The translations under genes were made by a program, and so were the position numbers. 64,000 nucleotides of DNA from Octopus vulgaris (lineage: Eukaryota): contig OX597816.1 of the NCBI GenBank assembly GCA_951406725.2, forward strand, positions 89,714,001 to 89,778,000. The letters are read 5' to 3'. The notes beneath the pieces were generated by a model. The model had not been told where the DNA came from. It did no database searches and saw only the letters and a list, made by a program, of their open reading frames with translations. This document shows, one piece after another, positions 60 to 63,400 of this stretch (positions are counted from its first letter, which is position 1; the number at the start of each line of letters is the position of its first letter).

Positions 60-1010
60 ACATGAGCAGCAACAGTTCTCACATCGACAATGCTCTTCTC
101 AATACGTGTGATGTACCAGTTAAGACAATCTTTTGCACTTCTTGCAGGGATGGTAAGCCAGGGATCATTCTCATATCATTTTCGGTTCCCTTCTTGATCA
201 TTCCTAGTGCTCCTACGATCACTGGTATTGTAACCGCCTTGAGATGCCACATTTTCTCAATTTCAATGAGTAGGTCTTTATATTTTCTGAGCTTGTCAAA
301 CTCTTTCGCTGAGATATTATGATCACAGGGGATGCTCATGTCGATCAATAAGCAAACTTTATTGTTTTGGTCTTTCACAACAATATCTGGTTTATTGGCC
401 TTGATGGTTCGGTCTGTATGTACTGGAAAGTCCCACAGAATGGTTACATTTTCTCCTTCAGTTACAGCCTCAGGGTGGTGATTATACCACTTGTCGGCAG
501 TTTTGATATTGTAATGCCGACTTATTAGCCAGTGGAGATATTGGCCAACTCTGTCATGTCTTAATTTATACTCCACTGGTGCTAAGACTTTACATCCAGA
601 GATTAGGTGGTCCACTGTTTCAATCATGTCGTTGCAGAATCGGCATTTTGGGTCTGCTCCATTTTTCATCACATTGGCCTGGTAGTTCCGGGTTAATAGG
701 CTTTGATCTTGAGCAGCCAGGATGAAACCTTCGCTCTCTGCTTTTAGCCCTGAGCTCCGTAGCCACTGATGGGTTTGCTTCTGGTCAACATCAGCTTGTT
801 TGCTGCGGGTCACATATTTGCCGTGCAGAGGTTTCTCCTCCCACCTATCAGCCAATTGCTCGTGCGCTTTCTTCATTGCCATCATTTTCACCTTCTTTGC
901 AACAATAGTTGCCGTACTTCCCTCGGGTTGTTCAGTTTGGGTATCCTGCACGAGATCAATAGCAAATTTTTTGCTTTCCTTTATGATAGAATGAAGCTTC
1001 TTTCGTCTCT
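60..1010 (-). mobile_element. 5'-truncated R4/Dong-like non-LTR retrotransposon (C-terminal zinc knuckle + restriction-like endonuclease)
   Basis: ORF 79..1233 contains CRFC...ETVDHLISGC, RHD, ILWD, NKPDIVV...LID and K..KY motifs of RLE-type LINEs; the 5' side abuts (TAA)n/(TAC)n. Confidence 0.9.
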
Positions 1011-1052
1011 CATTATTATTATTATTATTGTTATTATTATTATTATTATTAT

Positions 1053-1090
<38 letters not shown>

Positions 1091-1133
1091 TTACTATTTT
1101 TATTATCATTATTATTTTTATTATTATTATTAA

Positions 1134-1199
<66 letters not shown>

Positions 1200-1203
1200 C
1201 ATT
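1011..1203. repeat. (TTA)n/(TAG)n compound microsatellite
   Basis: Read directly. Confidence 0.95.
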
Positions 1204-1415
1204 AAGGTGGTGAGATGGCAGAATCGTTAGCACGTCCGGGAGAATGGTCAGCGGAATTTCGTCCGTCTTTACGTTCTGAGATCAAATTCCGCCGAGGTCG
1301 ACTTTGCCTATCATCCTATCGGGGTCGATAAAATAAGTACCTTTTGAACACTGGGGTCGATGTAATCGACTTATCCCCTCCCCCAAAATTGTTGACTTTG
1401 TGACAAAATCTGAAA
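1204..1415 (+). mobile_element. tRNA-derived SINE, family A
   Basis: Head ggtggtgagatggcagaatcgttagcacg...caaattccgccgaggtcgactttgcc with A/B-box-like motifs; the family recurs many times in the window. Confidence 0.8.
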
Positions 1416-6527: not shown

Positions 6528-8859
6528 TAGTCTTATTTTTATCACGTGCTTTCACTGCACTACCAGGCGCAGGTCTGTGTGCCTTGAGTATGTGCTGTGG
6601 TTTGTTGTAATGCTTTTATTTTTACAGCATTGAAAGTGTTTTACGTAGGATGTGTGCGGTGCCTAGTAGTGCTATTTTCTGTATGTTATATATACTTGTT
6701 AGTCGTTTTATGTATTTGTCAGAATATTTTTTTATCATACCTAATGCGCCTACTTTGATAGGAATTGTTTCTGTTTTTAGACTCCACATTCGAGTTACCT
6801 CCATTTGCAGATCTTTTTATTTTGAATGTTTCTCCGTTTCTTTTGGAGAAACATTGACGGATATAGTTCTTTTTCAGCTATGTTGGTATTTGAGTGCTGA
6901 TACTTCCAAGTGCACCAATTACTATTGGTATCACGACTACTCTCTTCATTGACCGCAACCTTCGTATTTCCCACTTTAAATCCTCATAGATGTTTATTTT
7001 TTTCTTTTTCTTTCACATTGATCCTGTTATCATCGTGTATGCTATGTTGATTATCATACATGTCCTTTCTTTTTTATTCACCACAACAATGTCCGGTGTC
7101 GGGTGATCGCACTGGATCTTTGCATCCCACAAGATTTTACAATTATCATATTCGGTGACTCCTTCTAGACTTTACTCATAGCACGTCTTTGCTCTTTGTA
7201 GGCCGTGATTTCCACAGATCTTCCCATAGATCATTCTTGCTACATGTCATGGCGTCTTTTGTATTCCTGTTGTGCCCAATTTTGGGCATCCACTAAACGA
7301 TGTGGCATACCGTTTCACTTCTCACTCCATCCATTCTGCTTTTGTCGCTATCGGCAGTACTGTCGATTCTGCACTTCATATAGCTGGTCCTTAACGTTTA
7401 TTCCTGAGCTGCACATATGAGTACTTCTGTCTCTAGCTTCAGGTTACTCATCCTCATCCATAGCCAACGGTCCACTGCAACTGTTTTGGCCCGCATATCT
7501 CTTACATTTTCTTTTCCTTCCATGCTTTTGTTTTCTTCATTTCTTGTTTAAATTTTTCTTTCGTTACACAATTTTCAGATTTGAGGACGCTGACCTTCTT
7601 CATGTGTTTCAACAGTGGTTCCACGGCACATTTTATATACTACACTAATCTGTTTTCCTCTACTTCAATACAGTCCCGGAAAATGATCAAACCTCTCCCA
7701 CTCTTTCTTCTGGACAAGTACGGCCTATCGGTGTCACTCTTAAGGTAGAAGACTCCACATGCTGTCAACATTTTTCTTGTCTTAGTATCCATTTTCTTCA
7801 CTTCTCTCTTTTGCCATTTTATAATTCCTACTCTATACCACCCCACACCAATAATAAAAATGATAGTAATAATAATAATTATTATTAATATTATTATTGT
7901 TGTTGTTGTTGTTGTTGTTGTTATCACTAAAGGCGGCGATCTGGGAGAATCGTTAGCACGTCGGGCGAAATGCTTAGTGGTATTTCGTCGACCTTCTGAG
8001 TTCAAACACTAGGGTCGATGTAATCGATTATATCCTACCTAAAATTTCTGGACTTGTGCATATTGTAGAAAGGATTATTATTATTGTTGTTGTTGTTGTT
8101 GTTATTATTATTTTGGTTTGACACAGGTTTGGTCTTATTCTTGGTAGTATTTATGTGTATGACGGGTTACTATCTGTAACGTTAGATATCCACAAGTTTT
8201 CAGCAGTCTTTGAAGTGCTTAGAACACTCCTGATAACCTTTGCTGTCCCAAAGAAGACAAACTTTCTGTTGGAGCACTACCAGGCGTACTATTTCAAACT
8301 CACAAAATCTTACATTTCTCCGATGCCAGTACTCTTTCCATTCAATGATTGCACCATGTGTTTCCAGTTTCAAATCCCCATTTCTGGCACAGTTTATAAT
8401 GTAAAACATTTACAACTTGATCGTACTTCCATTTCTTATATTCTTCCGTTGCCAACTTAGGGCATTCTTCCACAATGTGTGCTACTATCTCGTTCCAAAT
8501 TGCACAGGCTCTACGTTTTACCCAAGTTGTTTGTTTTCATTGCTTGATCTTGAGCTGCTACAGTTAGGCACTCTTTCTTTTTTTAATTGTTCTTTTTTAA
8601 CCAAGCCTAATATTTTGTTCCACGTACACGGCCATGCATAATTATCCACAAGTTTTCAGTAGTCTTTCAATTGCTTAGAACTCTTCTTATAACCCTTGCT
8701 GTCCCTAAGATGCAAACATTCTATAGGAGCTCTATCGAGCATTCTATTTTAATATCCTTCAGCCATTTGTCTATATCTTGACTTACTATTCCCAACGCAC
8801 TAATTATTATACGCAGGACTTTTACTGTTCGCATGCTCCAAATTCTTCTCATTTCAAAT

Positions 8860-16125: not shown

Positions 16126-16289
16126 GTGTATGTATGTTCGATAATACTGGCCAACAACCAAAATGCTTCTGAGACCAGAGTAGCAAATTCCAACTAATTT
16201 TAGGTCGCTTTTTAGGTCGTATGTCAAATCTGAGCACAAACCGTCCAGAGGTATTCTACCCACTAATGCTCAACCTACAACAAAATTCG

Positions 16290-18880
16290 ATGTCGTCTAT
16301 TGCAAGCTGAGCCTATCCGAGTTTTGCCTGCCCGTGTTAGCTGTCTACAGGCCGCCTCTTGCCGACCCCCAGGACGATGCTCATTTACTCGAAGCGATAA
16401 GATTCGTTTCAGCTTCGCATGACTGTTTGGTACTAGGAGACTTCAACGCTCCCACGATCGATTGGCCCGCATCAATTTGTACAACATCTTCCCGGTTCGG
16501 CCAGGCCCTTCTTGACGTGGCTGAAGATTGTTTTCTATCGCAACATGTTGAATATCCGACAAGGCATCGGTCTGGGCAGCAGCCATCTATGCTCGATCTG
16601 GTATTCTCCCGCTATCCAAGATCAGTGTCAGACGTATCTGTGTGCGCCCCTCTTGCCAAGAGTGATCATGCGGTCCTGAAGTTCGTCATGCACATAACTT
16701 TTTCTACGCCCACGACTACTTCGCTGCCACGTAGAGTCTTCTCTGCAATTAATCTTGAAATTCTAACCGAGGCTTCCGCGCTTCTGGACTGGCGATTCCT
16801 GATGACGTTGTCCTCAGTTGACGAACTATGGTCATCCCTCAAAGCATATGTAATCTGGTTGACTGACCAGGCAGTTCCCGTTGGGCTTCCCAAGAAGAAG
16901 AAACACAAGCCCTGGGTGACGAAGAAGGTTAAACGAGAACGTCGACTCAGAGATATTGCTTGGGCTGAATTCAAAAATCTGGATTCGACTGCAGCTTTTG
17001 AGGTGTACAAAACTCAACGAGACCGAGCCGTGAAAATTGAAAAGGAAGAACGCTTCAGTTATGAATACAAAATCGCGGCAAATGCCAGTAGCAATCCAAA
17101 AACCTTCTTTGCCCATGTCCAACGGAATTCCCGCTTGAACAACCAGATTACAACGTTGGTAGACTCAACAGGCGTATCGATTGAGGACCCTTATCAACAG
17201 AGTCAATTATTTGCCGAGGCTTTTTCAACTATTTTCAAACAAGATGATGGTCGTGAACCCCCTCCATTTGATAGATCGGTACCTCCAATGCCTAGATTGG
17301 TCATCACGCGGGACGAAGTCAAACGTGTTATTCAAGGCCTCGATGTCAACAAGGGTCACGGCCCTGACGGCATACACCCACGGGTTATCAAAGCGTTGGC
17401 TCCGGTCATCTGCGAGCCCTTAACACGTCTATTCAATATGTCATTGGCGACGGGTGTTATACCTGCGGACTGGAGAACAGCGATAATCTGCCCAATTTTC
17501 AAGAAAGGGAGCCGCGAAGACCCGCTTAACTACCGACCGGTTTCCCTTACATTAATAATCAGCAAGATGTTCGAAACCATCCTTAAGAAAAGTATGATGC
17601 TCCACCTCCAAAACACAGCCTCTATCTCTGATTCCCAACACGGCTTCGTGCCGTAGAGATCATGCTTGACCAACTTACTGGTAATGGAAGAATTGGTGAC
17701 GCGCATCCTCGATGATAGTGATGCTGTTGACATCGTTTTATTGGACTTTGCCAAAGCTTTTGACTCGGTAAACCACCGCCTATTACTTGTCAAGCTTCAA
17801 GCATATAGTTTCCATCCGGATATTGTACGATGGGTTGGTGCCTTCCTCTCAGATCGCTCCTTCCAAGTCCAAGTTAATGGTTCGCGATCCGACGTCTCCA
17901 GTGCGAGCAGTGGCGTGCCTCAAGGTTCTGTGCTTGGGCCCTTGTTGTTCTTAGTCTTCATAAATGACTTGCCCGACGACCTTACGCAACACACCCTACT
18001 ATTTGCCGACGATATCAAACTGGTCGCTCCTCGCGGTGATATAGAGGATCTTCGTCGATGCCTCCACCAAATTTGGAAGTGGTCTAACAAATGGGACCTG
18101 TGTCTGAACGTGTCAAAGTGCTGTCATCTGCCTGTTGGCTCTCCTCCTGCAACTCAACTTGATTTCGAGCCGGGTCGTCTGCTGCTGGAGAGGACCGATC
18201 AGGTAAAGGACCTGGGTATCTTGGTGGATTCCTCCTTTTCGCCTTCGGCCCAGTGCGTCCAAGCTGCCAACAAAGCACGCGGAATTCTGTTCTTGATTCG
18301 ACGGTCATTCGGAATGCTCACAGCAGCCATATTCCTACCACTCTATGTCACGCTGGTGAGGCCCATATTGGAGTACGGGATTCAAGCCTCTTCTCCTTAT
18401 CTCCTCAAAGACATACAGCATCTCGAATGAGTCCAGAAGCTGGCTACCCGCATGGTTCATGGTCTCAAAAATTTGTCCTATGAAGAAAGGCTGAGGACGC
18501 TCGACCTTTATTCTCTTGAAAAACGCCGCCGCCGTGGTGATCTTATTCTCGCCCACAACATCATAAGCGGAAAGTGTAGCCTCTCGAAAGAGCTGTTCAC
18601 TCCTGCTCCAGAGCGTCGGCTGCGGGGTCATTCCGAAAAGCTCTACCTGCGACGATTTCATCTCAGTCGAAGGAGAGGAGCTTTCTCCGTCCGGGTTGCG
18701 GATCCGTGGAACAAGCTGCCAGACGAGATGGTGAAGATGCCGACGACCGCTTTGTTCAAAGCTTCCCTTGACCTCAAGTGGCCTGAACTCTTTACATGAA
18801 CACCACCCTGTACTTAACTCCATGTCCCTCTTCATGGCCTTGCTATTTGCTTTTGAGCCAAATTAACTAACTAACTAACT
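16290..18880 (+). mobile_element. CR1-group LINE (APE endonuclease + RT), 5'-truncated, two nonsense codons
   Basis: VYRPP, GDFNAP.IDW, LDLVF, SDH; NYRPVSL, QHGF, LDFAKAFDSV, GVPQGSVLGP, FADD. ORFs 16334, 17666 and 18452 share one frame; (CTAA)n tail at ~18864-18880. Confidence 0.93.
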
Positions 18881-21020: not shown

Positions 21021-21106
21021 ATATATATATATATATATAACAATGAAAATCGTTGCAGTACATGTCACTTCATACGTACAGGTCAGTATATAAACAGAAA
21101 AAAATG

Positions 21107-21305
21107 GAAGAAGAACAAGAACAAGAAGAACAAGAACAAGAAGAACAAGAACAAGAAGAACAAGAACAAGAAGAACAAGAACAAGAAGAACAAGAACAAG
21201 AAGAACAAGAAGAAGAAGAACAAGAAGAACAAGAACAAGAAGAACAAGAAAAAGAAGAAGAAGAAGAAGAAGAAGAAGAAGAAGAAGAAGAAGAAGAAGA
21301 AGAAG

Positions 21306-21340
<35 letters not shown>
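21107..21340. repeat. (GAAGAACAAGAACAA)n grading into (GAA)n and (CAA)n
   Basis: Read directly; the poly-E/Q ORF is an artefact. Confidence 0.95.
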
Positions 21341-21343
<3 letters not shown>

Positions 21344-21504
21344 CCACCAGGTCCTGTTAAGTAATTTAGAAAAATACTGTAATGAAATCTTGGTATTTCT
21401 ATTTCATAAATTTTTAGACCCAATAATTTTAGAAGAGTAAAGCAAAGGAATTTAATTGGGAAGTTCATAGCAGTTCTGAATGGAGAGTTATACGAACAAT
21501 AATA

Positions 21505-23344: not shown

Positions 23345-24078
23345 AATTATGTATGTATGTATGTATGCAAGTATGTCAGTCTATTTCAAGATTTCTTGCC
23401 TATAGAGAAAGAACCGGTTTCTAACCTTGATCCAAGGCTCCTACATTGTAATTTCAATATCAACAACAGGGTATTTTGGAGGGGATGGATGGATGGATGT
23501 GCAGATTTGTATGTTTTATGCATGTATTCTCAAGCATATAGTTGCATATCGAGACATACTCATATATATTTAAATGATAAACTTCTGGAAAGTTTTACAC
23601 ATTTTTACAGTTCCAGTGATGGAATGGATCTGTAGTCTTCGAATCGATGTTCTGCTTCCTGGTTTTGAGAAGCCCAATTTCTCAAGGAAGGAGAAAATCG
23701 ATTCGAAGACTACAGATCCATTACATCACTGGAACTGTAAAATCTTTAAAACTTTCCAGAAGTTTATCATTTAAATATATGTGTCTCGATATGCAACTAT
23801 ATGCATGAGAATACATACATAAAACATACAAATCTGCACATCCATCCATTCATACATACATACATACATACATACATACATACATACATACATACATACA
23901 TACATACATACATACATACATACATACAAAAAATACCCTGTTGTTCATATTGAAATTACAATGTAGGAGCCTAGGGTCTAGATTAGAAACAGGTTTTTTC
24001 TCTATAGGCAAGAAATCTTGAAATAAACTGAATAATGACATACATGACATACATAATGACATACATGCATACATAATT
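23345..24078. repeat. ~730-bp fold-back (arms ~23345-23648 and 23698-24078)
   Basis: Near-identical inverted arms around a ~50-nt partly paired centre. Confidence 0.92.
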
Positions 24079-24264
24079 GTTCCAGTAATTCACATTCAAT
24101 TTGAATACTTGAATTGTATGTTGATCCTTCTACTTGTTTTTCATCTGTGTTGTAAATAATTTGGTCATACAGATCATATACAGAGTACCTCAGCTATTTG
24201 AGGACAAAAAATTTAATTTAAAAAAACCAAAAATATATATTAGAATATAATTCTTTTATTGATT

Positions 24265-24516
24265 TTATTCTTTTACTTGTTTCATTCATTAGATTGCGGT
24301 CATGGTGGGGTTTTTTTTAGTCGAACAAATCGAACACTAGGACTTATTTTTTTTAAGCCGAGTACTTATTCTATCGGAACTTTTGCTGATCCGCTAGGTT
24401 ACAGAGACTTACATACAATACCGGTTGTCAAGCGGGGATGGTGTTGGCGGTACAAACGCAGACACAAAGACAAAAACAAATAGATACATGCATACACACA
24501 CACAGACACACACACA

Positions 24517-24558
<42 letters not shown>
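24265..24558 (-). mobile_element. Family B SINE, 3' half (5' half at 28418-28585)
   Basis: Matches the left half of the intact copy at 57440-57890 up to its internal (TA)n. Confidence 0.75.
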
Positions 24559-24562
<4 letters not shown>

Positions 24563-24645
24563 GGTCCCGGGTTGATTCGGGGTTAACCACAGTAAATAAG
24601 GTACTCAATACATAGCAGAGTAAAATTAATTTATTATATAGAAGG

Positions 24646-24696
24646 AGCTTCTACAGGACTAGAACTGTTTCATTCAAGAGAAATCTTCAGGAAGCT
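24646..24696 (-). ncRNA. Type I hammerhead ribozyme (mirror of 28292-28342)
   Basis: Reverse complement reads AGCUUC-CUGAAGA-UUUCUCUUGAAU-GAAA-CAGuucuagucCUGUA-GAAGCU. Confidence 0.85.
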
Positions 24697-24859
24697 AGTT
24701 AACAAGAATTGTATTGGCATTTATACATTTAGGCAGGTTTAAAGGGGTGTTGGTGGGGGACTTTTTGGGGGTAGGCATAGCGCAAAATATCATACTTGGG
24801 GGAGTGGTCAAGGAGTCAGTGTTAAATTAGATAGAAGGATAAATAAAAAATAAAAAATA

Positions 24860-24893
<34 letters not shown>

Positions 24894-25354
24894 AAAAAGG
24901 GGGATAGAGTTTTAGGTAAATAAGGAGATTCTCACTTATACCTATGCACATATGTATACATATATACACACGCATACAAACATATACATATACATACACA
25001 CATACATACACACACATATATATATATATATATACATATATATACACTTACACATACATATACATATCTACACATACACATATATGTATACATACACACA
25101 CTCACATGCATACACGTATACACACATGTATATATACACACACACGACAACACATACATATACACACAGAAAAATATATATACACATACACACACATACT
25201 CACATACACGCATACACACACAAATCCACACACACACATGCACACCCAGCACACTAGTCCCTATATACACATATATACACATACACACACACATATATAT
25301 ACATACATACACATACACACACATACATATACATACACACACATACATATACAT

Positions 25355-25395
<41 letters not shown>

Positions 25396-25424
25396 AACAT
25401 GTGTACCCATGCATATCTACACAT

Positions 25425-25463
<39 letters not shown>

Positions 25464-26081
25464 CAAATACAGACCCATTCCCTAATTTTAATTTTATTAT
25501 CTTCGTTTATTACTTTTGTTATCTTTTGCCGCTTGGTCACAAACATCTTGGCTATGACAGCCAGTCCATTTATCTGTCTACTGGAAAACAAGCACTCATT
25601 CACTCACGCACACTCTTTAGCACGTACACTCACTCATTCGTACACTCATACACATACACGCACGCACGCGTTATATTCATACATACATACATCTACATAC
25701 ATTCACGTATATACACATACGTACGCGTACCTACAGATTCATGTCTACACTCTTAGGAGGCTAGTCTATACATATACACCAATAAATATAAATACACACA
25801 CATACACGTACACCTACATACAAATACATACATGTATATATATATATACCTATTCACACATATATACACATATATACATACACACACACATACATACACA
25901 TATACACACATATATATACACACATATACACATATATACACACATACACATACATACATGTACACACATACACATACATACGTATACATACATACATCCA
26001 TACATCCATACATACATACATTTATACACATACACACACCCACATACATACATATATATACGCGCATATATATATCCATAT

Positions 26082-26114
<33 letters not shown>

Positions 26115-27496
26115 CATATATACATATATATTCATACACACACATACACATACATACATACATATACAAATATACGCACACACATACATACATACTCATA
26201 TACTCATACACACACATACACATGTACATGCGTCCCCTTACACGCACACACACACGCGCGCGTCCATATATACACATAAGTACACCCATGCGTAAGAGTA
26301 TACATATATCTATGCTTACACATACACACACACACACGCGCCTCCTTATATTCATACTTACATGCATACTCAAAAAATAAGTAAATAGTAAAATATAATA
26401 TAATATATATAATAATATAATAATATAATAATATAATATAATAATATATACCTATATAATAATATACCTATATAATAGGTAACTGCACGTACATATACTT
26501 AATATTTTTTATTTATTATTTATTTTTTGAGTATGCATGTATGAATAACTGCGCGTATATACATTTTACTATTTACTTATTTTTGAGTATGCATGTAAGT
26601 ATGAATATAAGGAGGCGCGTGTGTGTGTGTGTATGTGTAAGCATAGATATATGTATACTCTTACGCATGGGTGTACTTATGTGTATATATGGACGCGCGC
26701 GTGTGTGTGTGCGTGTAAGGGGACGCATGTACATGTGTATGTGTGTGTATGAGTATATGAGTATGTATGTATGTGTGTGCGTATATTTGTATATGTATGT
26801 ATGTATGTGTATGTGTGTGTATGAATATATATGTATATATGTATATATGTATATATATATATATATATATATGGATATATATATGCGCGTATATATATGT
26901 ATGTATGTGGGTGTGTGTATGTGTATAAATGTATGTATGTATGGATGTATGGATGTATGTATGTATGTATACGTATGTATGTGTATGTGTGTACATGTAT
27001 GTATGTGTATGTGTGTATATATGTGTATATGTGTGTATATATATGTGTGTATATGTGTATGTATGTGTGTGTGTATGTATATATGTGTATATATGTGTGA
27101 ATAGGTATATATATATATACATGTATGTATTTGTATGTAGGTGTACGTGTATGTGTGTGTATTTATATTTATTGGTGTATATGTATAGACTAGCCTTCTA
27201 AGAGTGTAGACATGAATCTGTAGGTACGCGTACGTATGTGTATATACGTGAATGTATGTAGATGTATGTATGTATGAATATAACGCGTGCGTGCGTGTAT
27301 GTGTATGAGTGTACGAATGAGTGAGTGTACGTGCTAAAGAGTGTGCGTGAGTGAATGAGTGCTTGTTTTCCAATAGACAGATAAATGGACTGGCTGTCAT
27401 AGCCAAGATGTTTGTGACCAAGCGGCAAAAGATAACAAAAGTAATAAACGAAGATAATAAAATTAAAATTAGGGAATGGGTCTGTATTTGTATGTG

Positions 27497-27527
<31 letters not shown>

Positions 27528-27556
27528 ATGTGTAGATATGCATGGGTACACATGTT

Positions 27557-27629
<73 letters not shown>

Positions 27630-27951
27630 ATGTATATGTATATGTGTGTGTATGTATATGTATATGTGTATATGTATATGTATGTATATGTATGTGTGTG
27701 TGTATGTGTATATATGTGTATATAGGGACTAGTGTGCTGGGTGTGCATGTGTGTGTGTGGATTTGTGTGTGTATGCGTGTATGTGAGTATGTGTGTGTAT
27801 GTGTATATATATTTTTCTGTGTGTATATGTATGTGTTGTCGTGTGTGTGTATATATACATGTGTGTATACGTGTATGCATGTGAGTGTGTGTATGTATAC
27901 ATATATGTGTATGTGTAGATATGTATATGTATGTGTAAGTGTATATATATG

Positions 27952-27982
<31 letters not shown>

Positions 27983-28291
27983 ATGTATGTGTGTATGTAT
28001 ATGTATATGTTTGTATGCGTGTGTATATATGTATACATATGTGCATAGGTATAAGTGAGAATCTCCTTATTTACCTAAAACTCTATCCCCCTTTTTCTTA
28101 TATATATATATATATATATATATATTTTTATTTTTTATTTTTTATTTATCCTTCTATCTAATTTAACACTGACTCCTTGACCACTCCCCCAAGTATGATA
28201 TTTTGCGCTATGCCTACCCCCAAAAAGTCCCCCACCAACACCCCTTTAAACCTGCCTAAATGTATAAATGCCAATACAATTCTTGTTAACT

Positions 28292-28342
28292 AGCTTCCTG
28301 AAGATTTCTCTTGAATGAAACAGTTCTAGTCCTGTAGAAGCT
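28292..28342 (+). ncRNA. Type I hammerhead ribozyme, canonical core
   Basis: Stem I agcttc/gaagct, CUGAAGA, short stem II ttc/gaa with U-U first pair, GAAA, stem III acag/ctgt, GUA cleavage triplet ending at 28336. Confidence 0.85.
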
Positions 28343-28360
28343 CCTTCTATATAATAAATA

Positions 28361-28417
<57 letters not shown>

Positions 28418-28419
<2 letters not shown>

Positions 28420-28585
28420 GATAGGCTTCTTTCAGTTTCCGTCTACCAAATTCACTCACAAGACGTTGATCGGCTCGAGGTTACAGTAGAAGACATTTAC
28501 CCAGGATGCCACGCAGTGGAGACTGAACTCGGAACTATGTGGTTGGGAAGCAAGCTTCTTACCACACAGCTACGCCTTTGCCTAT
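28418..28585 (-). mobile_element. Family B SINE, 5' (tRNA-like) half
   Basis: ggcttctttcagtttccgtctaccaaa...gccacgcagtgg.gactgaac... Confidence 0.8.
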
Positions 28586-28629
28586 ATATAATAAATAAGT
28601 ATTTATATAATGAATTATTTTATAAAAAA

Positions 28630-37581: not shown

Positions 37582-37642
37582 AATATATTATATATATATA
37601 TATCAATATATATAAAATATGTATATAATATACTATATATAT

Positions 37643-37682
<40 letters not shown>

Positions 37683-37695
37683 TCTGTGTATATCA

Positions 37696-37762
<67 letters not shown>

Positions 37763-37765
37763 TAT

Positions 37766-37830
<65 letters not shown>
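35555..37830 (+). repeat. Second copy of the tandem duplication: lacks 33280-34986, has an extra SINE at ~36985-37200
   Basis: Junction gcgtaac|acagacacacaaacgca at ~37295 joins copies of 33280 and 34987. Confidence 0.88.
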
Positions 37831-37833
<3 letters not shown>

Positions 37834-39552
37834 CAGTGATGTCAACCCCCAACACACTATATCGGACATAACGTTTAGTGCCCCTGATGTCTTAGCGGCG
37901 ATAAACGAAATAAAACACAATTCAGCAGTAGGCCCCAATAGGTTCCCTGCTTGTGTCCTGAAGGTGTGTCGACACCAACTTGCATCTCCCCTTGCTAATC
38001 TGTGGAGAAACTCACTGGATGCTGGCTATATTCCAAAAAACCTTCTGCCCCAGTCTGTTGTCCCAGTTTTCAAAAAGGGAAACAAGTCCCTTGCAGTGAA
38101 CTACCGTCCGATCTCACTCACCTCTCATATCATCAAGGTATTTGAGAGGGTGGGGAGATCTCGAATAACCCAATTTCTGGAAAGCAACAGACGGCTGATC
38201 TCTAACCAACATGGGTTCCGTAATGGAAGGGACTGCCTAACGCAGCTCCTGCATCACTTTGATGACATTTTGAGAGCTTTGGGAGAGGGCCCCAACACCG
38301 ATGTCTTCTACATTGATTTCAGTAAGGCCTTCGACAGGGTCGATCACAAGATCCTATTGAAAAAATTATCCAGCATTGGTGTCTCTGGAAAGTTACTGAA
38401 ATGGATCAAGTGTTTCCTGACAGACAGATCTCAACATGTTGTAGTTGAAGGGGTAAGATCAAGCCCAGCCAAAGTCAGTAGTGGCGTTCCGCAAGGCACT
38501 GTGCTGGGCCCACTTCTTTTCATCATCTACATTAATGACATTAATGACATCATCAAGCACAGCAACATAAAAATCTTTGCAGATGATTCCAAGCTACAGA
38601 AGGTCATAAATGAGGCGAGTGACCGGACATGCCTTCAGTCAGATCTACTGGCTGTTATCCAATGGGCAGAAAAAAACAATATGCTGCTGAACGAGGATAA
38701 ATTTGAGTTAATCCACTTTGGAAAAGAGGATGCCCTGAAACTCCCATACTCCCTTCCTTCAGGTGAAACTCTCGCGGCGTCCAACAACATCAGAGACTTG
38801 GGAGTAATTGTGGACAACAACATAAGCTGGGCCACTCATATAAACACCAAAGTTGACATGGCCCGCAGAATGTGTTCCTGGATTCTCAGAACTTTCCAGT
38901 CGAGAGATATCCACACCATTATCCTTCTCTTCTCCACTTTTGCCCGACTCCACCTTGAATACTGTTGTCCACTGTGGTCTTCCCACACAATACAAAGTAT
39001 CATAAAAGTTGAAGCACCTCAAAGGGCAATCACAAGAAAGATAGATGGCATGACAGGCCTCGACTATTGGGGTCGACTAGAAAAGCTAAAACTTTATTCT
39101 CTCCAACGTCGTCGTGAGCGCTACATCATCTGCATGATGTGGAAAATATTCCATCAGCATTGCCCAAATGATGTTGGCATCACCTTTAAGGTACATCCAA
39201 GGCTTGGGCCCCGTGCCATCCGCCCAAAACAAAAGTCGCACTCTCATCTCATAACAACAATACGGCACAATTATTTCACCTCAATTGGCCCCGCTCTCTT
39301 TGACATTACACCAAAACACATTAAAACAGAAACTGACCCTATAGGGTTCAAGAAGTCTTTGGACAGATTCCTTCAAGAAATCCCGGATAAACCCCCTACA
39401 CCCGGATATGTCTCTGTAAACAATAACTCTCTACTTGAGTGGGCCATAGTGCCCAAATTCTGACTTGAAAGACTTCACCAGGTGGTGCTATTAAGTTAGA
39501 CATGGCCTGGGCCAATAATGGCCGAAACCTATCAAAGTATCAAAGTATCAAA

Positions 39553-41264: not shown

Positions 41265-42765
41265 ACTTAGACTTAGATAAACTTAGATATGTTTCGACCA
41301 AAGATTGGTCCAGGCCATGTCTAACTTAATAGCACCACCTGATAGGATTATTCGAATCCTGTTTAAGTGAAGTTTTGTTCAAGTAGTGAGTTCTTGTTGG
41401 GTGAGTTGTATCCAGTTTTGTTCAAGTAGTGAGTTCTTGTTGGGTGAGTTGTATCCAGTTTTGTTCAAGTAGTGAGTTCTTGTTGGGTGAGTTGTATCCA
41501 ATTATGGGTGGCTTATCTGGTATTCTTTGAAGGAATCTATCCAGACTCTGTTTAAAGTTGATGGGATCCTTTTCCTCTTTGATCTCCCTCGGGACAATGT
41601 TAAATAGGGCAGGGCCTGTTGAGGAAAAGAAATTATGTTGCAGTGTACATGTATGTTGTGATCTTGAATTTGGCAGGGGACGTATAGCTCTTGGTCCAAG
41701 CCTTGGATGAACCTTGAAGCTAATGTTTAGGTCGTTTGGGCAAAGTTGGCGGTATATTTTCCACATCGTACAAATGATGTACCGCTCACGGCGACGCTGG
41801 AGGGAGTAAAGTTTTAAGGCTTTAAGGCGATCCCAATAATCGAGAGCAGCCATGCCTTCAATTTGTTTAGTGAGAGCCCTCTGGGGTGACTCAATTCTGG
41901 AGATGTTTTGTCTTGTGTGAGGAGACCACAGTGGGCAGCAGTATTCAAGGTGTGGCCGTACAAAGGAGGGAAAAAGTGGTATGATGACACCTTGTTCTCT
42001 AGACCGGAAAGTTCTTAAGATCCAGGAACTCATCCTACGGGCTATATCGACCTTCTTGTTGATGTGTGCACTCCAACTGAGATCGTCATCAACAATTACA
42101 CCCAGGTCTCTGATATTGTTAGAGGCTGTGAGCGGTTCCCCTGAAGGAAGAGAGTATGGTTGTTTTAGTGAGAAATTTCTTCCAAAATGCATCAGCTCAA
42201 ATTTTCCCTCATTCAGTTGCATTTTGTTTCTGTCTGCCCATTGACTCACAGCATATAGATCAGACTGGAGTTGAGTTCGATCTGCTTCTTCATTGACGAT
42301 TTGCTGGAGCTTAGTGTCATCAGCGAATATTTTCACTTTGCAGTAATGTACGACACTGGAAAGGTCGTTTACGTAAATTATGAAGAGTAGCGGACCCAAA
42401 ACAGTTCCCTGGGGAACACCGCTGGTGCCTTTTGCTGGGTTTGAGTGGACTCCATCAACTACAACATGTTGTGTTCTATTCGCCAGGAAATACTTAATCC
42501 AGTGTAGAACTTTTCCACGGATTCCAACATTTGCCAATTTTGAGAGTAGGATGTTATGGTCTACCCTGTCGAACGCTTTACTGAAGTCAAGATATATGAC
42601 GTAAGAGTTCGAACCTGTTCCCAAGACTTTGAGTACATCTTCAATGTGGTGTAAGAGCTGTGTTAGACAGTCCCTGCCACAGTGAAAGCCATGCTGATTT
42701 GAATTTAGGAGTTTGTGGGTCTCCAGGAAGTCAGCTATCCTTGATCTTAACACTCTTCAAACACT
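41265..42765 (-). mobile_element. CR1-group LINE, 5'-truncated (relative of 37830-39555)
   Basis: ORF 41422..42753: [30 protein letters not shown]; (TCTAAG)-type tail. Confidence 0.92.
41371..41499. repeat. 43-bp tandem triplication at the LINE ORF end
   Basis: agttttgttcaagtagtgagttcttgttgggtgagttgtatcc starting at 41371, 41414 and 41457. Confidence 0.95.
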
Positions 42766-53248: not shown

Positions 53249-56200
53249 TGTAAGAACGATAAAACAGAGCTCCGGAATCTATCCACAAACATCGAAAACA
53301 AAGACATCGTATGGAGCCAAAAGTTTACTAACAAAGGATTGGACTATATCCGAGTAAGTAATACTCATTGAAATTTATTACTATTTTCGAAACGAAATGA
53401 TGTATTTTAACTCGATATCATCTCCACCTCTAACACAACACATGTAAACATGCGTGAAACATTACGATCCATCAACACCAGATCATCCCCGACCCCAAAC
53501 ACCATGTACAAAAAAACTACGAAGAAATTAAATACCACCGATATTATTCAACCCAAGAATAACAATCGGGAAGTACGTTCTTTAAACTTACAACACAAAA
53601 TGTACGAAAAACTACACGTGCAAAACAATGTGACAACAGAAATGAACGGACCGGTACCCTACGAAAATGACGACCGTCAAAATAATGGGCCGGACGTTGT
53701 TCCTCATGTCCCGCAAATAAAACCCAAAAGACATAAATGGACACGTGAGGAATACATTTCTATCCTACACGAATACTTCACAGCAGTGCTCTACCCAAAA
53801 AATGAAAACACAACACATACATATAAAATATGGAAGGAAAATAACATAAATATAGACTTGGATACAGCAATGAACCCTAATAAACTAGCTAACGTACGAA
53901 GATACATTCTCAACGCAAAAAAATATCAGAAATAGAAATAGAACATCTAAAAGAAAAAAATACACCAGGAAAATGTAGATAGAAGCCACACAACAATGCC
54001 CAATAATACAAACACTGAAACAGTAAAACATGAAGACAAACGTAACATTCCTAACAAACACGATGTAAACAAAAAGCAACAAACCCAAACCGTAAGGATG
54101 CATAATAATACACGACAAACAACAAGCCAAAACACGGCAAACAAACATATAAATAAGAAAGAAAGCGACACAAATCTAAAACCTGGAAACAACGAAGGGG
54201 AGCCTAATGATTATGATAATATAAAAAGTAAAATAATCGAAGAACTGAAAACCACAGTGCTCAAAATGGACCACCGACCATACCTCCCAAAAAGCAAAAT
54301 AGACGAAACAACAACAATTATAAACAGCATAAACCTAGCCGTCACGGAACTAATAGCCACTGAAACAAAAAGCGATATCACTGAGCTAAATGACTTAGTA
54401 TACGCAGCAGTCACTGCAGCCACAAAAGAAGCTGGATACTCACTCAAACCCATCCAAACAGGAGTACCACCACCCAAACAAACCCTGTGGATAAATAACA
54501 ACCAAAACAAAATACAAAAAATGAGAAAATATCTGTCGATTCTTAATGAAATCAGTAGACAATCAACGCTACTGAGCAACAAAAAGTAAACAAAAATACT
54601 CCGCAAATATAACATCACAGAAAAAGATTTACCTGAGATAAAAGAAAAACTGAAGCAAGATATCCTTGCCAAAGCACAAAGGATCCGCCGGTTCGAGAAA
54701 CGCCAGCGCTTCTTTGAACAAAACAAAAAGTTCAACTCCAACCCCAAAAAGTTCTACCAAGAACTGGAAAAAAATAAAATAGAAATCACTGCAGCACCAA
54801 CGGCAGAAGAAGTGGAAATATTCTGGAGAGAAATATGGTCGGCGAACGAATAACCAAAGAAGGGGGTTTAAAACAACAAACTCAGCATCTAAGCAACTTT
54901 GGACCCCCATAACAACTGAAGAAGTCACCCAGGCACTGCAAAGACTAAGCAACTGGAAGGCACCTAGGCATGACAAGATCCCCAACTTCTGGTTGAAATA
55001 TCTTACAGGAATGCACAAAAAGCTGGCTGAAAACTTTAACAACATACTAGCAGAGCCAGAGACAATGCCTGAATGGCTCACGAAAGGGAAAATCATCTTA
55101 ATTCACAAATCAAATGAGACAGCAAAACCAGAAAACTACAGACCAATAACCTGTCTCCCTACAATGTACAAGGCATTTACTGCAGTGATATCGCAAAGGT
55201 TGAACAAGCACCTGGACGAAAACAACCTGTTTCCAGAAGAGCAGAAAGGATGCCGCAAAGGCTCATATGGCTGTAAAGATCAACTAATGATTAATAAAGA
55301 CATAACTGAAGACAGCCACAGAGAGAAGAAAGGTCACAGTATGGCCTGGATCGACTACAAAAAGGCGTTTGATAGCATCCCCCATACATGGATCCTCGAA
55401 ACACTAGCCATTAACAAAGTAGCACCAACAATTATAAAATTCATAGGACACTCTATGAATAAATGGCAAACAGTGCTACAGCTCCAAACAAAAGAGGGAC
55501 TCATGAAAACCAAAGACATCCCCATTAGAAGAGGAATATTCCAGGGAGACACGCTCTCTCTACTCCTTTTCTGCTTTGCACTGTCACCTCTATCTGATAT
55601 GCTAAATAGAACTGGATGCGGATATAAATGTTACGGCAAAATGATCAGCCACCTTTTATATATGGATGACCTAAAACTATACGCTGCAAATGACAAACAG
55701 CTGGAAGCACTATTAATGACAGTTCATGGATTTACCAAAGAAATAGATGTGAAATTTGGATTAGAGAAATGCGCCAAAGTAACCCTGAAAAGAGGAAAAC
55801 TAGTTCAGAGTAGCAACATCACGCTAGATAAAACCAATGAAATAAAAGAATTAGACCAAAGCCAAACTTACAAATACTTAGGAATCCATGAACTAGATAA
55901 GACACAACACACACAAATGAAAGAGAAAATGAAAAAAAAGAATATTATAGACGAGTTAGATCAATACTGAAAACAGAGCTCAATGCTAAAAACAAGATAA
56001 TAGGTATCAACACTTTAGCCGTCCCAGTTATAAGTTACAGCTAGAATATCCTTAACTGGACACTAAATGAACTGACCAAAATAGATAGGAAAACAAGAAA
56101 AATAATGACAGGATCTAGGATGCATCACCCAAAATCTGACATAGAAAGGCTAAATATACAACGTATAGAAGGTGGTAGAGGCCTTATACAGCTGGAAAAC

Positions 56201-57375
56201 TACTATAAAATAACCACCATAGGACTGCAAAGATATCTACTTCAGAAGGAAGGAAAATTGATACAAATAGCGGCAAAACACGAGCAAAACAAAAAACTGT
56301 TCTCAGTATTTAAGGAAGCTGACAAATACAAACAAGAAATAAAACCACCTAACAAATATGAAGAAGAAGAAGAAGAAGAAGAAGAAGAAGAAGAAGAAGA
56401 AGAAGAAGAAGAAGAAGAAGAAGAAGAAGAAGAAGAAGAAACAACAAAAGCTATAAAACAAATGAAATCCAAACTAAAAATAGAACAGTAACGAACCATG
56501 ATAAAACGATGACAAGAAAAGCCCCTTCATGGCAAATACTGGACTAAACTAAATGCAAAAGAAATAGACAAAGAAAAATCCCAACAATGGTTGAGAAGCT
56601 CAGGACTCAAAGCAGACACAGAAGGATGTTTAATTGCAGCACAAGACCAAAGCCTCCCCACCAGAAATTACCAAAAACATGTAATGAAAAGAAATATAAC
56701 AAGTAACTGCAGAATATGTGGAGATGGACAAGAAACAATAAATCATATTATCTCTGGCTGCCCAGTCCTGGCTAAGAAGGAATATATTCACAAACACGAC
56801 AGAGTTGGGACCTATATACACTGGAAACTATGCCAACATGGAATAACAACAGAAAAAAGATGGTATAGGCACACACCAGAAAAGGTCACAGAAAACGAGA
56901 AAGCAACCATACTCTGGGATATGCCAATAAACACAGATAGAGAAATTAAGGCTAACAGACCAGATATAGTTGTCAGAGATCATGAGGAAAATCATGTTTT
57001 CTAAGTGATGTATCAATACCAGCGGATGACAACGTTCTCTAAAAGAAATGGAGAAACTTTCAAAATACAAAGACCTGGAAATAGATGTAACCAGAATCTG
57101 GAATCTAAAAACAGAAACAATTCCTATCATAATAGGTGCATTAGGCATGATGAAAAATATTCAGACAAATACATAACAAAAACACCAGGACTTACAAACA
57201 CATATAACATACAGAAAATTGCACTACTAGGCACTGCACACATCCTACGTAGAACACTTTCCATACAATAACCATCAGAGGATCACAACAAACCACAGCA
57301 CATACCCAAGGCACACAGAGCTGCGCTCGGTAGTGAAGTAAAAGCACGATATAAAAAATATACTACTGAATAATA
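53117..57375 (+). mobile_element. Near full-length R4/Dong-like LINE (RT + CCHC + RLE), inactivated by stops and frameshifts, inserted in (TAA)n
   Basis: HKWTREE N-terminus, YRPITCL, DYKKAFDS, GIFQGDTLS, YMDDLK, CRIC..ETINHIISGC, KHD, NRPDIVV; ends ctactgaa(TAA)n. Confidence 0.93.
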
Positions 57376-60499: not shown

Positions 60500-63400
60500 A
60501 TGAAAAAACAAGTCAGGATAGAAAATGCTAAAATAATTTTATAAAGAACATTTCAGTACCGGTTCCAGTCATTGAGACCTTTTCAACTGTAACAATTAAA
60601 TAATTAAATTTAGAAAAATTAAAAGAAAAGTTTTTTTAAAAGAATATTTGTATAGTGTTCAAATATAAGTGGCATTTTCTTTGTTTCTGCCATTCACCGT
60701 CTCTCTTGTTTACTCTTGTGGGTTCGAGGTCGTTGTGAATTCTTGGTAGGGAAGAAGAAGGAGGAGGAGGAGGAGGAGGAAAAGGAAGTGGAGGGGAGGA
60801 AGGAGACAAAGAATTTGAGAATGTCTTGATTGTAGTATTTTGAATGGTCAGTGGAGGCTAGCAGTTGCTGTTCAATTCATGAAAAAAATTCTATTGGAAG
60901 TTTTGTTTATAGAATTTGTGTAGGTGTTATACTAAAAAGCATTAGAGATAAAGTTAGGAAGGAAAAGGGGGAGAAGAAGAAGAAGAAGAAGAAGAAGAAG
61001 AAGAAGAAGAAGAAGAAGAAGAAGAAGAAGAAAAAGAAGAAGAAGAAGAAGAAGAAGAAGAAGAAGAAGAAGGAGGAGGAGAAGAAGAAGAAGAAGAAGA
61101 AGAAGAAGAAGAAGAAGAAGAAGGGAGAATATGAATGAGTGAAAGTAGTGAGGTGTTGGATGACTTAAAGTTGGCACGTTATGGATTATAGCAGTGATTG
61201 GGGCTGATTTTAATGGATTCTTAGGAATGTAATATTTGCGTGTGTATTCGTGTTATTCTAAGGCCGAGGTGGATATATCGTTTATCGTAGGCGCATTCAG
61301 AAGGGGTCTGTATTTTGTAATAAAGAGAGTTTCTTTACTAATTCGTTGACTCCCGATTATATCGTCCTTGAATTGGTAGAGGGAAAAAATCCTGAAGCCT
61401 GGAGTTCTGTTGTTGTCGCAAATATCTATGTGTTGGCTGAATGCTATTTTTCTGTTTAGGGGAATTTTTATCTGGGATCTGTGCAGGGTCATTCTTTTAC
61501 GTAAACTATTTTTTGTTTGGCCTATGTATTGCTCTTGACACCCAGAGTAGGTTAGTGTGTATATCAGGTTCTCCGAAGCACATGTGAAGTTGCTTTTCAC
61601 TGTGAAACGTTGTTCCTGTTTGAAGGAGAACTCTGATCCCTCAATTAGATAATCGCATATCCCACAATTGGGTCTTCCACATTTTTTTACTGTCGACTTC
61701 TGTGTTGATGAGCGTATTCGGGCTTGTGTTAGGAGACTTTTCATAGATTTGGGCTGTCTCTTGCTTTTTATGATCGTGTGTTTGGAGTATTAAGTTCATT
61801 CTGTGGTCCTTTTCTAGCAGGGGTATGTTTTGGAGGATGGTGTCGGAGGCTTCATTGTTGAGAGGGTTGTGTGTGGAGATGTATGGTAAGGCTTTTGGTC
61901 GTAAATTTTTCTTTAATTTGGGATGTCTGATTTCCTGGATGTTGAGTTGAAGGGCACGTTGAATGCATATGTCAATTAGTGAAGGTGGGTAGTTCCTGGT
62001 GATGAGGGTATCTTTTAGTTCATGTAGTCGTGTATCTCTGGTGTTTGCATTAGAAACTATAGTACATATCCTTTTTGCTAGATTGAAGGGGATATTCATT
62101 CTTGTGTGTCTGGGGTGGCATGAATTGAATGGTAGCTATTGCTTGGAATCCATAGGCTTATAGTATATATCTGTTTCTATTACATTATTAGATTTCTTAA
62201 TGAGGATGTCGATGAAGGGGAGTTGTTGCTGGCTATATTCCATTGTGAATTGGATGTTTACGTCCAGTCCATTTAAAATTGCTTGGAATTCTTTGAGTTT
62301 CTCTATATTTTCATGCCAAAGAATGAAACAGTCATCTAGGTATCTCTTCCAGTTGTTTTCTATGTAGAGGGAGAAAGTGCTGCCATATCTTTCTAGAACC
62401 TTACGATACAGACTGATTTCTAGATATCCTATGAATAGGTTGGCAAAGGAGGGGACCATTTGCGTACCCATCGCAGTCCCCGATTTTTGTCGGTAGAAGT
62501 TGTCTTTGAAGGCGAAGTAGTTATTTTTGATGCGATGTGGGAGTTCGTTGGCGTGATTCTCTAGCCAGAATTGAATTGCCTCTATTCCTAGGTTGTGGGG
62601 GATATTGGAATAGAGGTTGACTACATCGAAGGATACTAGTAGGGTGTTTTTGTTTATTGTTTTAGGCAGGTGATTGAGCATATCCAGGTCATCCCTTATA
62701 TAGCTTTTGACATGTTTAAGGAGTGGTTTTAAGAGGGTATCTAAAAAGTTACTGAGGCGGTGGGTTTTGAATGTGGGACCTGCTATTATCGGTCTTAATT
62801 TGAGGTCATTAGGATTAGGGACTTTAATTATTTTGTCTGTGGCTATCTTGCATGCGATACTTATTTTCTCACTTTTGTGTATCTTGGGAATACTGTAGAA
62901 TTGGCTGGTTTTACTTGTGAAATTGGTCATATAGTCATATTCTTTGTCGGTGAGCCCTTCTTTGTATGGGTTTAACATGGATTTTAGTTCTCTCATTCTT
63001 TGCTGACTGTAGTTTGGGGCCTTTTCATAATATGTTGTGTCTTCCAACATAGATAGTACTGAAGTTATGTAAAATGTCGTGTCCATTAAAACAACTGCAC
63101 TCCCTTTACCGGCCTCTTTGATTGTTATTTTTTTGTCATTTTTTAATTTGTTCAGCTCAGCGCATTCTTTTTTGCTGAAGTTTTTTTTGTGTTTTTGTTT
63201 GTGCATATGTTGATTTTGGTAATTTGAGATGTGTTCACAGAAATGATCAAGAGTTTTGGTCTTAACTTTTGAGGGGGTGTAGTTACTCCTATTTCTGACA
63301 AATTATTCGTCCTCGTTGTATTTGTCGTATAGCTCCTCAGTAAGTCGTAATTTTTTACAGAATTCTGCGATGACTTCTTTCATTTCATTTTAGTTGGGTT

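What the first reader, a model, noticed from the sequence alone, without database searches (positions are those of the whole stretch)
24558..28418. 3.7-kb palindrome with outward-facing hammerheads, inserted in the (TA)n core of a SINE
Seen: each arm ends in a canonical type I hammerhead (24646-24696 minus, 28292-28342 plus). The interior is ~1.5 kb of compound TA/CA microsatellite with one unique island. The whole unit splits a family B SINE (halves at 24265-24558 and 28418-28585). The arms differ by a few SNPs and by repeat lengths, and the centre (~26395-26560) is asymmetric. Inference: a non-autonomous PLE-like element inserted with a head-to-head inversion; read-through on either strand would give a long dsRNA hairpin trimmed at its 3' end by a ribozyme.
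Basis: partly seen in the sequence, partly recalled or inferred. Interest (0 to 1): 0.75.

Follow-up and report, generated by a model that had tools for sequence, protein, structure and literature searches.

The report
Head-to-head Hydra-clade Penelope insertion
The 3.7-kb palindrome is two cut-short tail ends of a young, abundant Penelope-like jumping gene joined head to head inside a TA repeat, a layout already known for this class; its copies always pair one long end with one short end, which likely reflects two copying starts on one RNA.

Summary
The palindrome, both type I hammerheads and the split SINE are real. It is not a separate non-autonomous element. Both arms are 5'-truncated 3' UTR pieces of an autonomous 5.2-kb Penelope-like element (PLE), whose 713-aa reverse transcriptase + GIY-YIG ORF has the Hydra-clade motifs.

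Head-to-head insertion is this family's usual form: 42 of 65 other loci sampled, each with its own junction; this centre occurs once in the genome. That argues against a fold-back assembly artefact, although reads did not test it. Inverted truncated copies, a one-sided tail, (TA)n targets and 3' hammerheads are published PLE features.

The added detail is quantitative. In 44 of 44 pairs exactly one arm carries the 71-nt tail, arm lengths are uncorrelated, and the two arms share rare variants. Both ends lie 3' of the ribozyme cut site, so cleavage does not make the ends. This best fits two priming events on one uncut RNA (inferred). This scan noted the long-end/short-end rule before on other DNA of this genome. 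Cleavage, expression and dsRNA are untested.

The parts
24260..24519 (.). Left half of the target SINE (ends in CA repeat)
   Evidence: adjacent to the right half in 18 intact rows
24520..24558 (.). Left (TA)n target run
24559..24629 (-). 71-nt tail (long end); in tandem copies the same sequence is the 5' UTR leading to the ORF start
24646..24696 (-). Type I hammerhead motif, left arm; predicted cut between 24652 and 24651
24630..26395 (-). Left arm: 5'-truncated PLE 3' UTR (TG/TA microsatellite with unique islands)
26396..26470 (.). AT-rich junction filler, unique in the genome
26471..28358 (+). Right arm: 5'-truncated PLE 3' UTR, about 90 nt longer at its 5' side, no tail (short end)
28292..28342 (+). 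Type I hammerhead motif, right arm; predicted cut between 28336 and 28337
28333..28351 (+). Hairpin overlapping the cut site and the 3' strand of stem I; predicted to compete with the active fold; conserved in older subfamilies
28364..28418 (.). Right (TA)n target run
28419..28590 (.). Right half of the target SINE

Best explanation
The palindrome is one recent insertion of an autonomous Hydra-clade Penelope-like retrotransposon, made of two 5'-truncated copies of its 3' UTR joined head to head in the (TA)n core of a SINE, and it was likely made by two priming events on one uncut RNA. Shown: the family, its ORF, the target, the one-tail rule, independent truncation, and shared variants between arms. 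Inferred: the RT-GIY-YIG protein nicks both strands of (TA)n, and each 3'-OH primes reverse transcription at one of two fixed sites 22 and 93 nt 3' of the hammerhead cut site. The cDNA started at the distal site would displace the first one. Each cDNA stops on its own or at the RNA's broken 5' end, and the two 3' ends join by a few bases of microhomology or filler. The hammerhead is a passenger of the 3' UTR, conserved for the element's life cycle, and does not define the ends.
For: Family and ORF: over 990 first-look candidates (apparent cap), with the 40 scored all about 100% identical. Longer arms contain RT/EN. A 713-aa open ORF exists and the unit is 5193 nt. Hydra motifs RWR, DKT, CxCX5C, CxxC and CxH are present with no CX2-5CxxC (against PMC8557442 section 11). 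Homologues carry GIY-YIG and RVT_1 hits. Layout: 42 of 65 other loci show both hammerheads head to head, and 6 more show an inverted piece. One-tail rule: 44 of 44 independent pairs have one tailed and one tail-less end, sampled from both end types. Independent truncation: tail arm longer in 17, shorter in 19, within 30 nt in 6 of 42; Spearman -0.11, p 0.48. Junctions: overlaps of 1-4 nt in 10 of 45 alignments and 0 in 4. Same source: arms differ by 45 of 12,688 island bases (0.35%), and 30 rare variants are shared by both arms in 10 units, 3 of them here. Near-equal arms are in excess, 6 observed against 1.0 expected, p 0.00015. In vitro, a PLE protein nicks and extends both strands and starts RT at two sites bounding the tail on uncleaved RNA (PMC11167929).
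Against: Shared variants could also come from one donor locus making several RNAs, or from arm-to-arm gene conversion. The 6 near-symmetric units also fit fold-back. [quoted passage not shown] 17 of 65 loci show no inverted partner within 8-9 kb. Loci were the top-scoring, youngest hits, not a random sample. No reads spanning the unit were examined. Pfam and PDB gave no RT or EN hit on the ORF itself, and no tree was built. Strand displacement by this RT is not shown.
Confidence: 0.72

Rival explanations
1. Same family and target, but the two arms are copied from two RNA molecules of one donor locus by an asymmetric RT-EN dimer, one subunit starting at each site.
For: Explains the one-tail rule, independent lengths and shared donor variants. 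A PLE dimer is predicted in PMC11167929.
Against: Does not explain the excess of near-equal arms. Needs both RNAs to come from the same locus although many loci exist.
Confidence: 0.14
2. Fold-back or self-priming: one cDNA hairpins and copies itself, as proposed in a related form for Adineta PLEs, with later centre deletions.
For: Palindromic junctions in a few units (L083, L095, L103); excess symmetry; self-priming proposed in PMC3846280.
Against: The tail-less arm is longer, by up to about 5 kb, in 19 of 42 units, so the tailed arm cannot be its template, and a tail-less cDNA cannot template a tail.
Confidence: 0.07
3. A distinct non-autonomous palindromic element, or a host dsRNA/ribozyme device, that moves or is kept as a unit.
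For: This copy has no ORF; two intact hammerheads face outward; the hammerhead is conserved across subfamilies.
Against: The centre occurs once in 2.8 Gb; all 44 independent junctions differ; arms are nested pieces of the autonomous unit; no host gene was recognised in the window by an ORF scan.
Confidence: 0.05
4. Assembly artefact (fold-back chimeric read).
For: Long near-perfect inverted repeat; no spanning reads were seen (inconclusive).
Against: The two flanks are different and rebuild one SINE. The ends differ by the family's tail rule, the arms differ by substitutions, the centre has filler, and dozens of loci show the same rule.
Confidence: 0.02

Closest known systems
Hydra-clade C-terminal EN+ Penelope-like elements (Craig et al. 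2021, PMC8557442; passages and supplement parts read), e.g. Penelope-13_HM and Hydra-1_Obim
   Same: RW[KR], DKT, CxCX5C, CxxC and CxH motifs; (TA)n target; 3' type I hammerhead, many with the same U-U at the base of stem II; inverted 5'-truncated copy (listed for Penelope-13_HM); tail at one end (Fig. 2 legend).
   Different: The unit is 5.2 kb with a ~2.9-kb microsatellite 3' UTR, against generally under 3 kb. The tail is 71 nt, against 30-40. The hammerhead and the N-terminus differ from Hydra-1_Obim by eye, so it is another family. The strict one-tail count is not given in the passages read.
PAc (Poseidon, Anolis) in vitro system (Frangieh et al. 2024, PMC11167929; parts 1-2 of 4 read)
   Same: Two RT start sites bounding the tail, AT-rich target, both strands nicked and extended, uncleaved RNA as template, hammerhead inactive without protein.
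   Different: Different clade; its hammerhead overlaps the ORF start, whereas here the ATG is 131 nt after it; no strand-specific start site was reported.
L1 twin-priming 5' inversions (recalled, not read)
   Same: Two target nicks prime two cDNAs that join head to head by microhomology.
   Different: L1 arms are non-overlapping parts of the RNA; here both arms cover the same 3' end, giving a palindrome.
Animal non-LTR retrozymes (Li, Clavereau and Pollet, 10.64898/2026.07.22.740005; part 1 of 5 read)
   Same: Type I hammerhead, PLE link, no ORF in this copy.
   Different: Retrozymes are short tandem monomers; this is an inverted pair of truncated pieces of a coding element.

Membership tests
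EN+ Penelope-like element | Single ORF with RT and C-terminal GIY-YIG endonuclease | tested here: met
   713-aa ORF with YRDD at 347, LVY at 586 and YIG at 603; homologues hit PF01541 and PF00078. The ORF itself had no such Pfam or PDB hit. It is absent from this truncated copy.
EN+ Penelope-like element | Partial tandems (pLTR) and inverted 5'-truncated copies | tested here: met
   Tandem units 5193 nt apart; 42 of 65 other loci inverted
EN+ Penelope-like element | Tail extension at one end, equal to the sequence after the pLTR | tested here: met
   71 nt; continues into the ORF in L037, L051 and C1 tandems; longer than the published 30-40 nt
EN+ Penelope-like element | Hammerhead motif near the 3' end | tested here: met
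Hydra clade | RWK motif, no GxKF/Y | tested here: met
   RWR at 38 (conservative variant), no GxK[FY]
Hydra clade | DKG changed to DKT | tested here: met
   DKT at 116
Hydra clade | CxCX5C linker; CCHH absent; CxxC and CxH flanking the E and N residues | tested here: met
   CNCPDKTTC at 567, no CX2-5CxxC, one Cys only between VY and YIG, CDLC 667, CMH 695
Hydra clade | (TA)n insertion target | tested here: met
   Nearly all ends abut (TA)n
Hydra clade | Groups with Hydra elements in an RT tree | not tested
   Reference Hydra proteins were seen only as supplement text and compared by eye
Hydra clade | Generally short (<3 kb; descriptive, not diagnostic) | tested here: not met
   5193 nt
Type I hammerhead ribozyme | Full core and three stems, stem I open | tested here: met
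   among 21 motifs from older-subfamily loci, frequent changes fall on N7 and loop II; motifs were found with a core pattern, so this is partly circular; no compensatory pairs
Type I hammerhead ribozyme | Self-cleavage | not testable with these tools
   Folding predicts a competing hairpin
Non-LTR retrozyme | Short non-coding tandem monomers each with a hammerhead | tested here: not met
   Arms are truncated pieces of a 5.2-kb coding unit

The most novel reading that the evidence does not exclude
Hydra-clade PLEs integrate by nested twin priming: both nicked target strands prime on one uncut RNA at two fixed sites 71 nt apart, with strand displacement, so a palindrome is the normal product. 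A conserved hairpin keeps the hammerhead off until the protein or circularisation needs it. Hundreds of young kilobase inverted repeats would then be a standing source of editable dsRNA in this genome.
Probability: 0.3. Interest if true: 0.6.

Novelty: new member of a known kind. Interest (0 to 1): 0.3.

Why it matters
The locus itself is ordinary retrotransposon debris. The family is useful because how PLEs form inverted copies and one-sided tails is stated as open in PMC8557442 and PMC11167929. A young, high-copy family with an open ORF, two sharp ends, a 44-of-44 one-tail rule and same-source arms gives clear predictions for the existing in vitro assay. It also shows that such palindromes should not be annotated as MITEs, host switches or assembly errors.

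Tried and rejected
Rfam scan: 0 hits.

Pfam and PDB on the ORF: only a below-cut-off VtrA_C hit, rejected as chance.

First guess of Neptune clade: rejected once the motifs fitted Hydra.

Over the centre the tool skipped the repeats and no piece spanned the junction, so this is inconclusive, and the empty site was not seen. No RNA holder was listed.

Editing signature in copies: singleton T>C exceeds A>G on the sense strand (17 vs 7, p 0.02, one of six tests; 20 vs 4 for variants seen at most twice; 12 vs 3 with strict filters). The changes are not clustered, at most 2 per arm, so hyper-editing is not supported; RT wobble error is an equal reading.

Local alignment to one reference gave unreliable arm ends in microsatellite and was replaced by k-mer change points.

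Rows dropped: L069 and L061 (overlap other loci), L042 (duplicate of L041); L037 and L051 dropped from length statistics (tail runs into an ORF); L090 dropped from the spectra. L034 was mis-scored by a pattern and is tailed.

Literature: 6 searches listed no paper on twin priming in PLEs or on this family. The library lacks most subscription journals and Repbase/Dfam entries, bioRxiv supplements are closed, and the repeat library of PMC13282606 (passages only) was not examined, so the family may already be catalogued.

Full report
Observation. Aligning the left half against the reverse complement of the right half shows two arms, 24626-26395 and 26562-28362. They differ by two substitutions in non-repeat sequence, four changes in one microsatellite and repeat slips. 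The flanks rebuild one SINE: the same two halves lie 9-119 nt apart in 18 of 20 paired rows from the window and fetched loci. The left arm alone ends in a 71-nt extension, 24559-24629.

What it belongs to. The arm end is a young, abundant repeat. Two searches of the 2.8-Gb genome each returned about 1000 candidates, and the 40 scored were about 100% identical. I fetched about 10 kb around 39 hits to the short end and 29 hits to the long end; three overlapping or duplicate loci were dropped, leaving 65. Longer arms run into a reverse transcriptase and GIY-YIG ORF. One copy has an open 713-aa ORF, and tandem copies give a unit of 5193 nt: 131 nt from the hammerhead to the ATG, a 2.1-kb ORF, and about 2.9 kb of microsatellite-rich 3' UTR. 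The window's arms of about 1.8-1.9 kb lie wholly in that UTR. The tail is the start of the next unit's 5' UTR. The host looks like an octopus; that is an inference from repeat content and from earlier scan notes, not a test.

Clade. The protein has RWR, DKT, YRDD, CxCX5C, CxxC and CxH, and lacks CX2-5CxxC and GxK[FY]. These match the diagnosis of the Hydra clade in PMC8557442. That paper's supplement lists (TA)n targets, hammerheads with the same U-U pair at the base of stem II, an inverted truncated copy in Penelope-13_HM, and a different octopus family, Hydra-1_Obim. Of 120 listed homologues, 119 have DK[TS] and 117 a CxC..C linker. Pfam and PDB did not recognise the ORF itself, and no tree was built.

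Architecture across copies. 42 of 65 loci have both hammerheads head to head at the anchor, 6 more have an inverted piece (one only 10 nt), and 17 show none in view. Counting the window and one further unit in L090, there are 44 independent pairs. 42 have one tailed and one tail-less end, 2 have the tail running on into an ORF, and none is tail/tail or short/short. Sampling from both end types removes anchor bias for this rule, though not the bias to young copies. All junctions differ and this centre occurs once in the genome, so each palindrome is its own event.

Arm lengths and source. Arm lengths are uncorrelated: the tailed arm is longer in 17, shorter in 19 and within 30 nt in 6 of 42. 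The near-equal class is in excess (p 0.00015). Arms of one unit differ at 0.35% of island bases; here 0.47% against a mean of 1.62% and a minimum of 0.64% to other loci. They share 30 rare variants in 10 units. With the calibration quoted in PMC13282606, 0.35% would mean roughly half a million years or less; this is a crude inference.

Mechanism. Both ends lie 3' of the hammerhead cut site, at 22 and 93 nt, so the templates were uncut or re-ligated. This agrees with the in vitro result that a PLE protein nicks and extends both strands, starts at two sites bounding the tail, and uses unprocessed RNA (PMC11167929). A hairpin overlapping the cut site is predicted to take stem I pairing from 0.85-0.99 down to 0.01-0.03, and it is kept in older subfamilies where frequent changes fall on N7, loop II and the 5' flank. 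I favour two target-primed starts on one RNA, the distal one displacing the proximal cDNA, followed by joining of the two cDNA ends through short overlaps. This accounts for the one-tail rule, shared variants, independent lengths and the near-equal class (run-off at the same RNA end). An asymmetric dimer with two RNAs from one donor is the main rival. Pure fold-back (PMC3846280) fails for the 19 units whose tail-less arm is longer. These steps are inferred, not shown.

Artefact and function. Public contigs did not span the centre and no RNA holder was listed, so neither the assembly nor expression was tested with reads. Distinct flanks, rule-abiding ends and filler make an artefact unlikely. 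An ORF scan of the window showed only retroelement and repeat ORFs; small exons would be missed. The dsRNA hairpin idea stays possible and unsupported.

Novelty. The layout is published. Six literature searches listed no paper on this family or on twin priming in PLEs, within a limited library. Earlier notes of this scan report the same long-end/short-end rule on other DNA of this genome; I had counted it here before reading them. Verdict: new member of a known kind, interest 0.3.

Noticed in passing
L037, L051, L059, L062, L063, L071, L073-L078, L089, L091, L108, L110, L111, L122 (C-run between RT and EN): 19 of 27 matches have a C-run one base short, which separates RT from EN by a frameshift; 6 are in frame and 2 are one base long. 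This is either a prolific frameshifted master (helped in trans or by slippage) or homopolymer miscalling.
   Followed up: partly
Element copies in L031-L108: Sense-strand singletons show T>C over A>G (17 vs 7; 12 vs 3), unclustered. This could be RT wobble error or editing of an antisense template.
   Followed up: partly
L059:3570-3800; L035 and L046 flanks: The 3' UTR contains an AT-rich ~230-nt block that also occurs on its own in (TA)n elsewhere, suggesting the long UTR grew by capture of other TA-targeting repeats.
   Followed up: no
L041, L042, L049, L090, L122: New copies often insert into the TA run at the end of an older copy, giving nested palindrome clusters; L041 and L042 look like a segmental duplicate.
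   Followed up: partly
L054 near 7780-8000 (oriented): A 10-nt tail stub followed by about 200 nt of unrelated sequence at the 5' junction; possible template switch to a foreign RNA.
   Followed up: no
window 61253-63302 (-): Fragments of another Penelope-like element of a different clade, with RT and a GIY-YIG region carrying a CxxC-type linker (read by eye).
   Followed up: no
window 79-1281, 16184-18430, 37616-39463, 41422-42756, 53411-57004: LINE-type reverse transcriptase or endonuclease ORF fragments (by eye).
   Followed up: no
window 23550-23840: A separate ~290-bp inverted repeat just left of the SINE (seen; centre near 23690).
   Followed up: no
window 21048-21386: Tandem array with 15- and 9-nt periods.
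   Followed up: no
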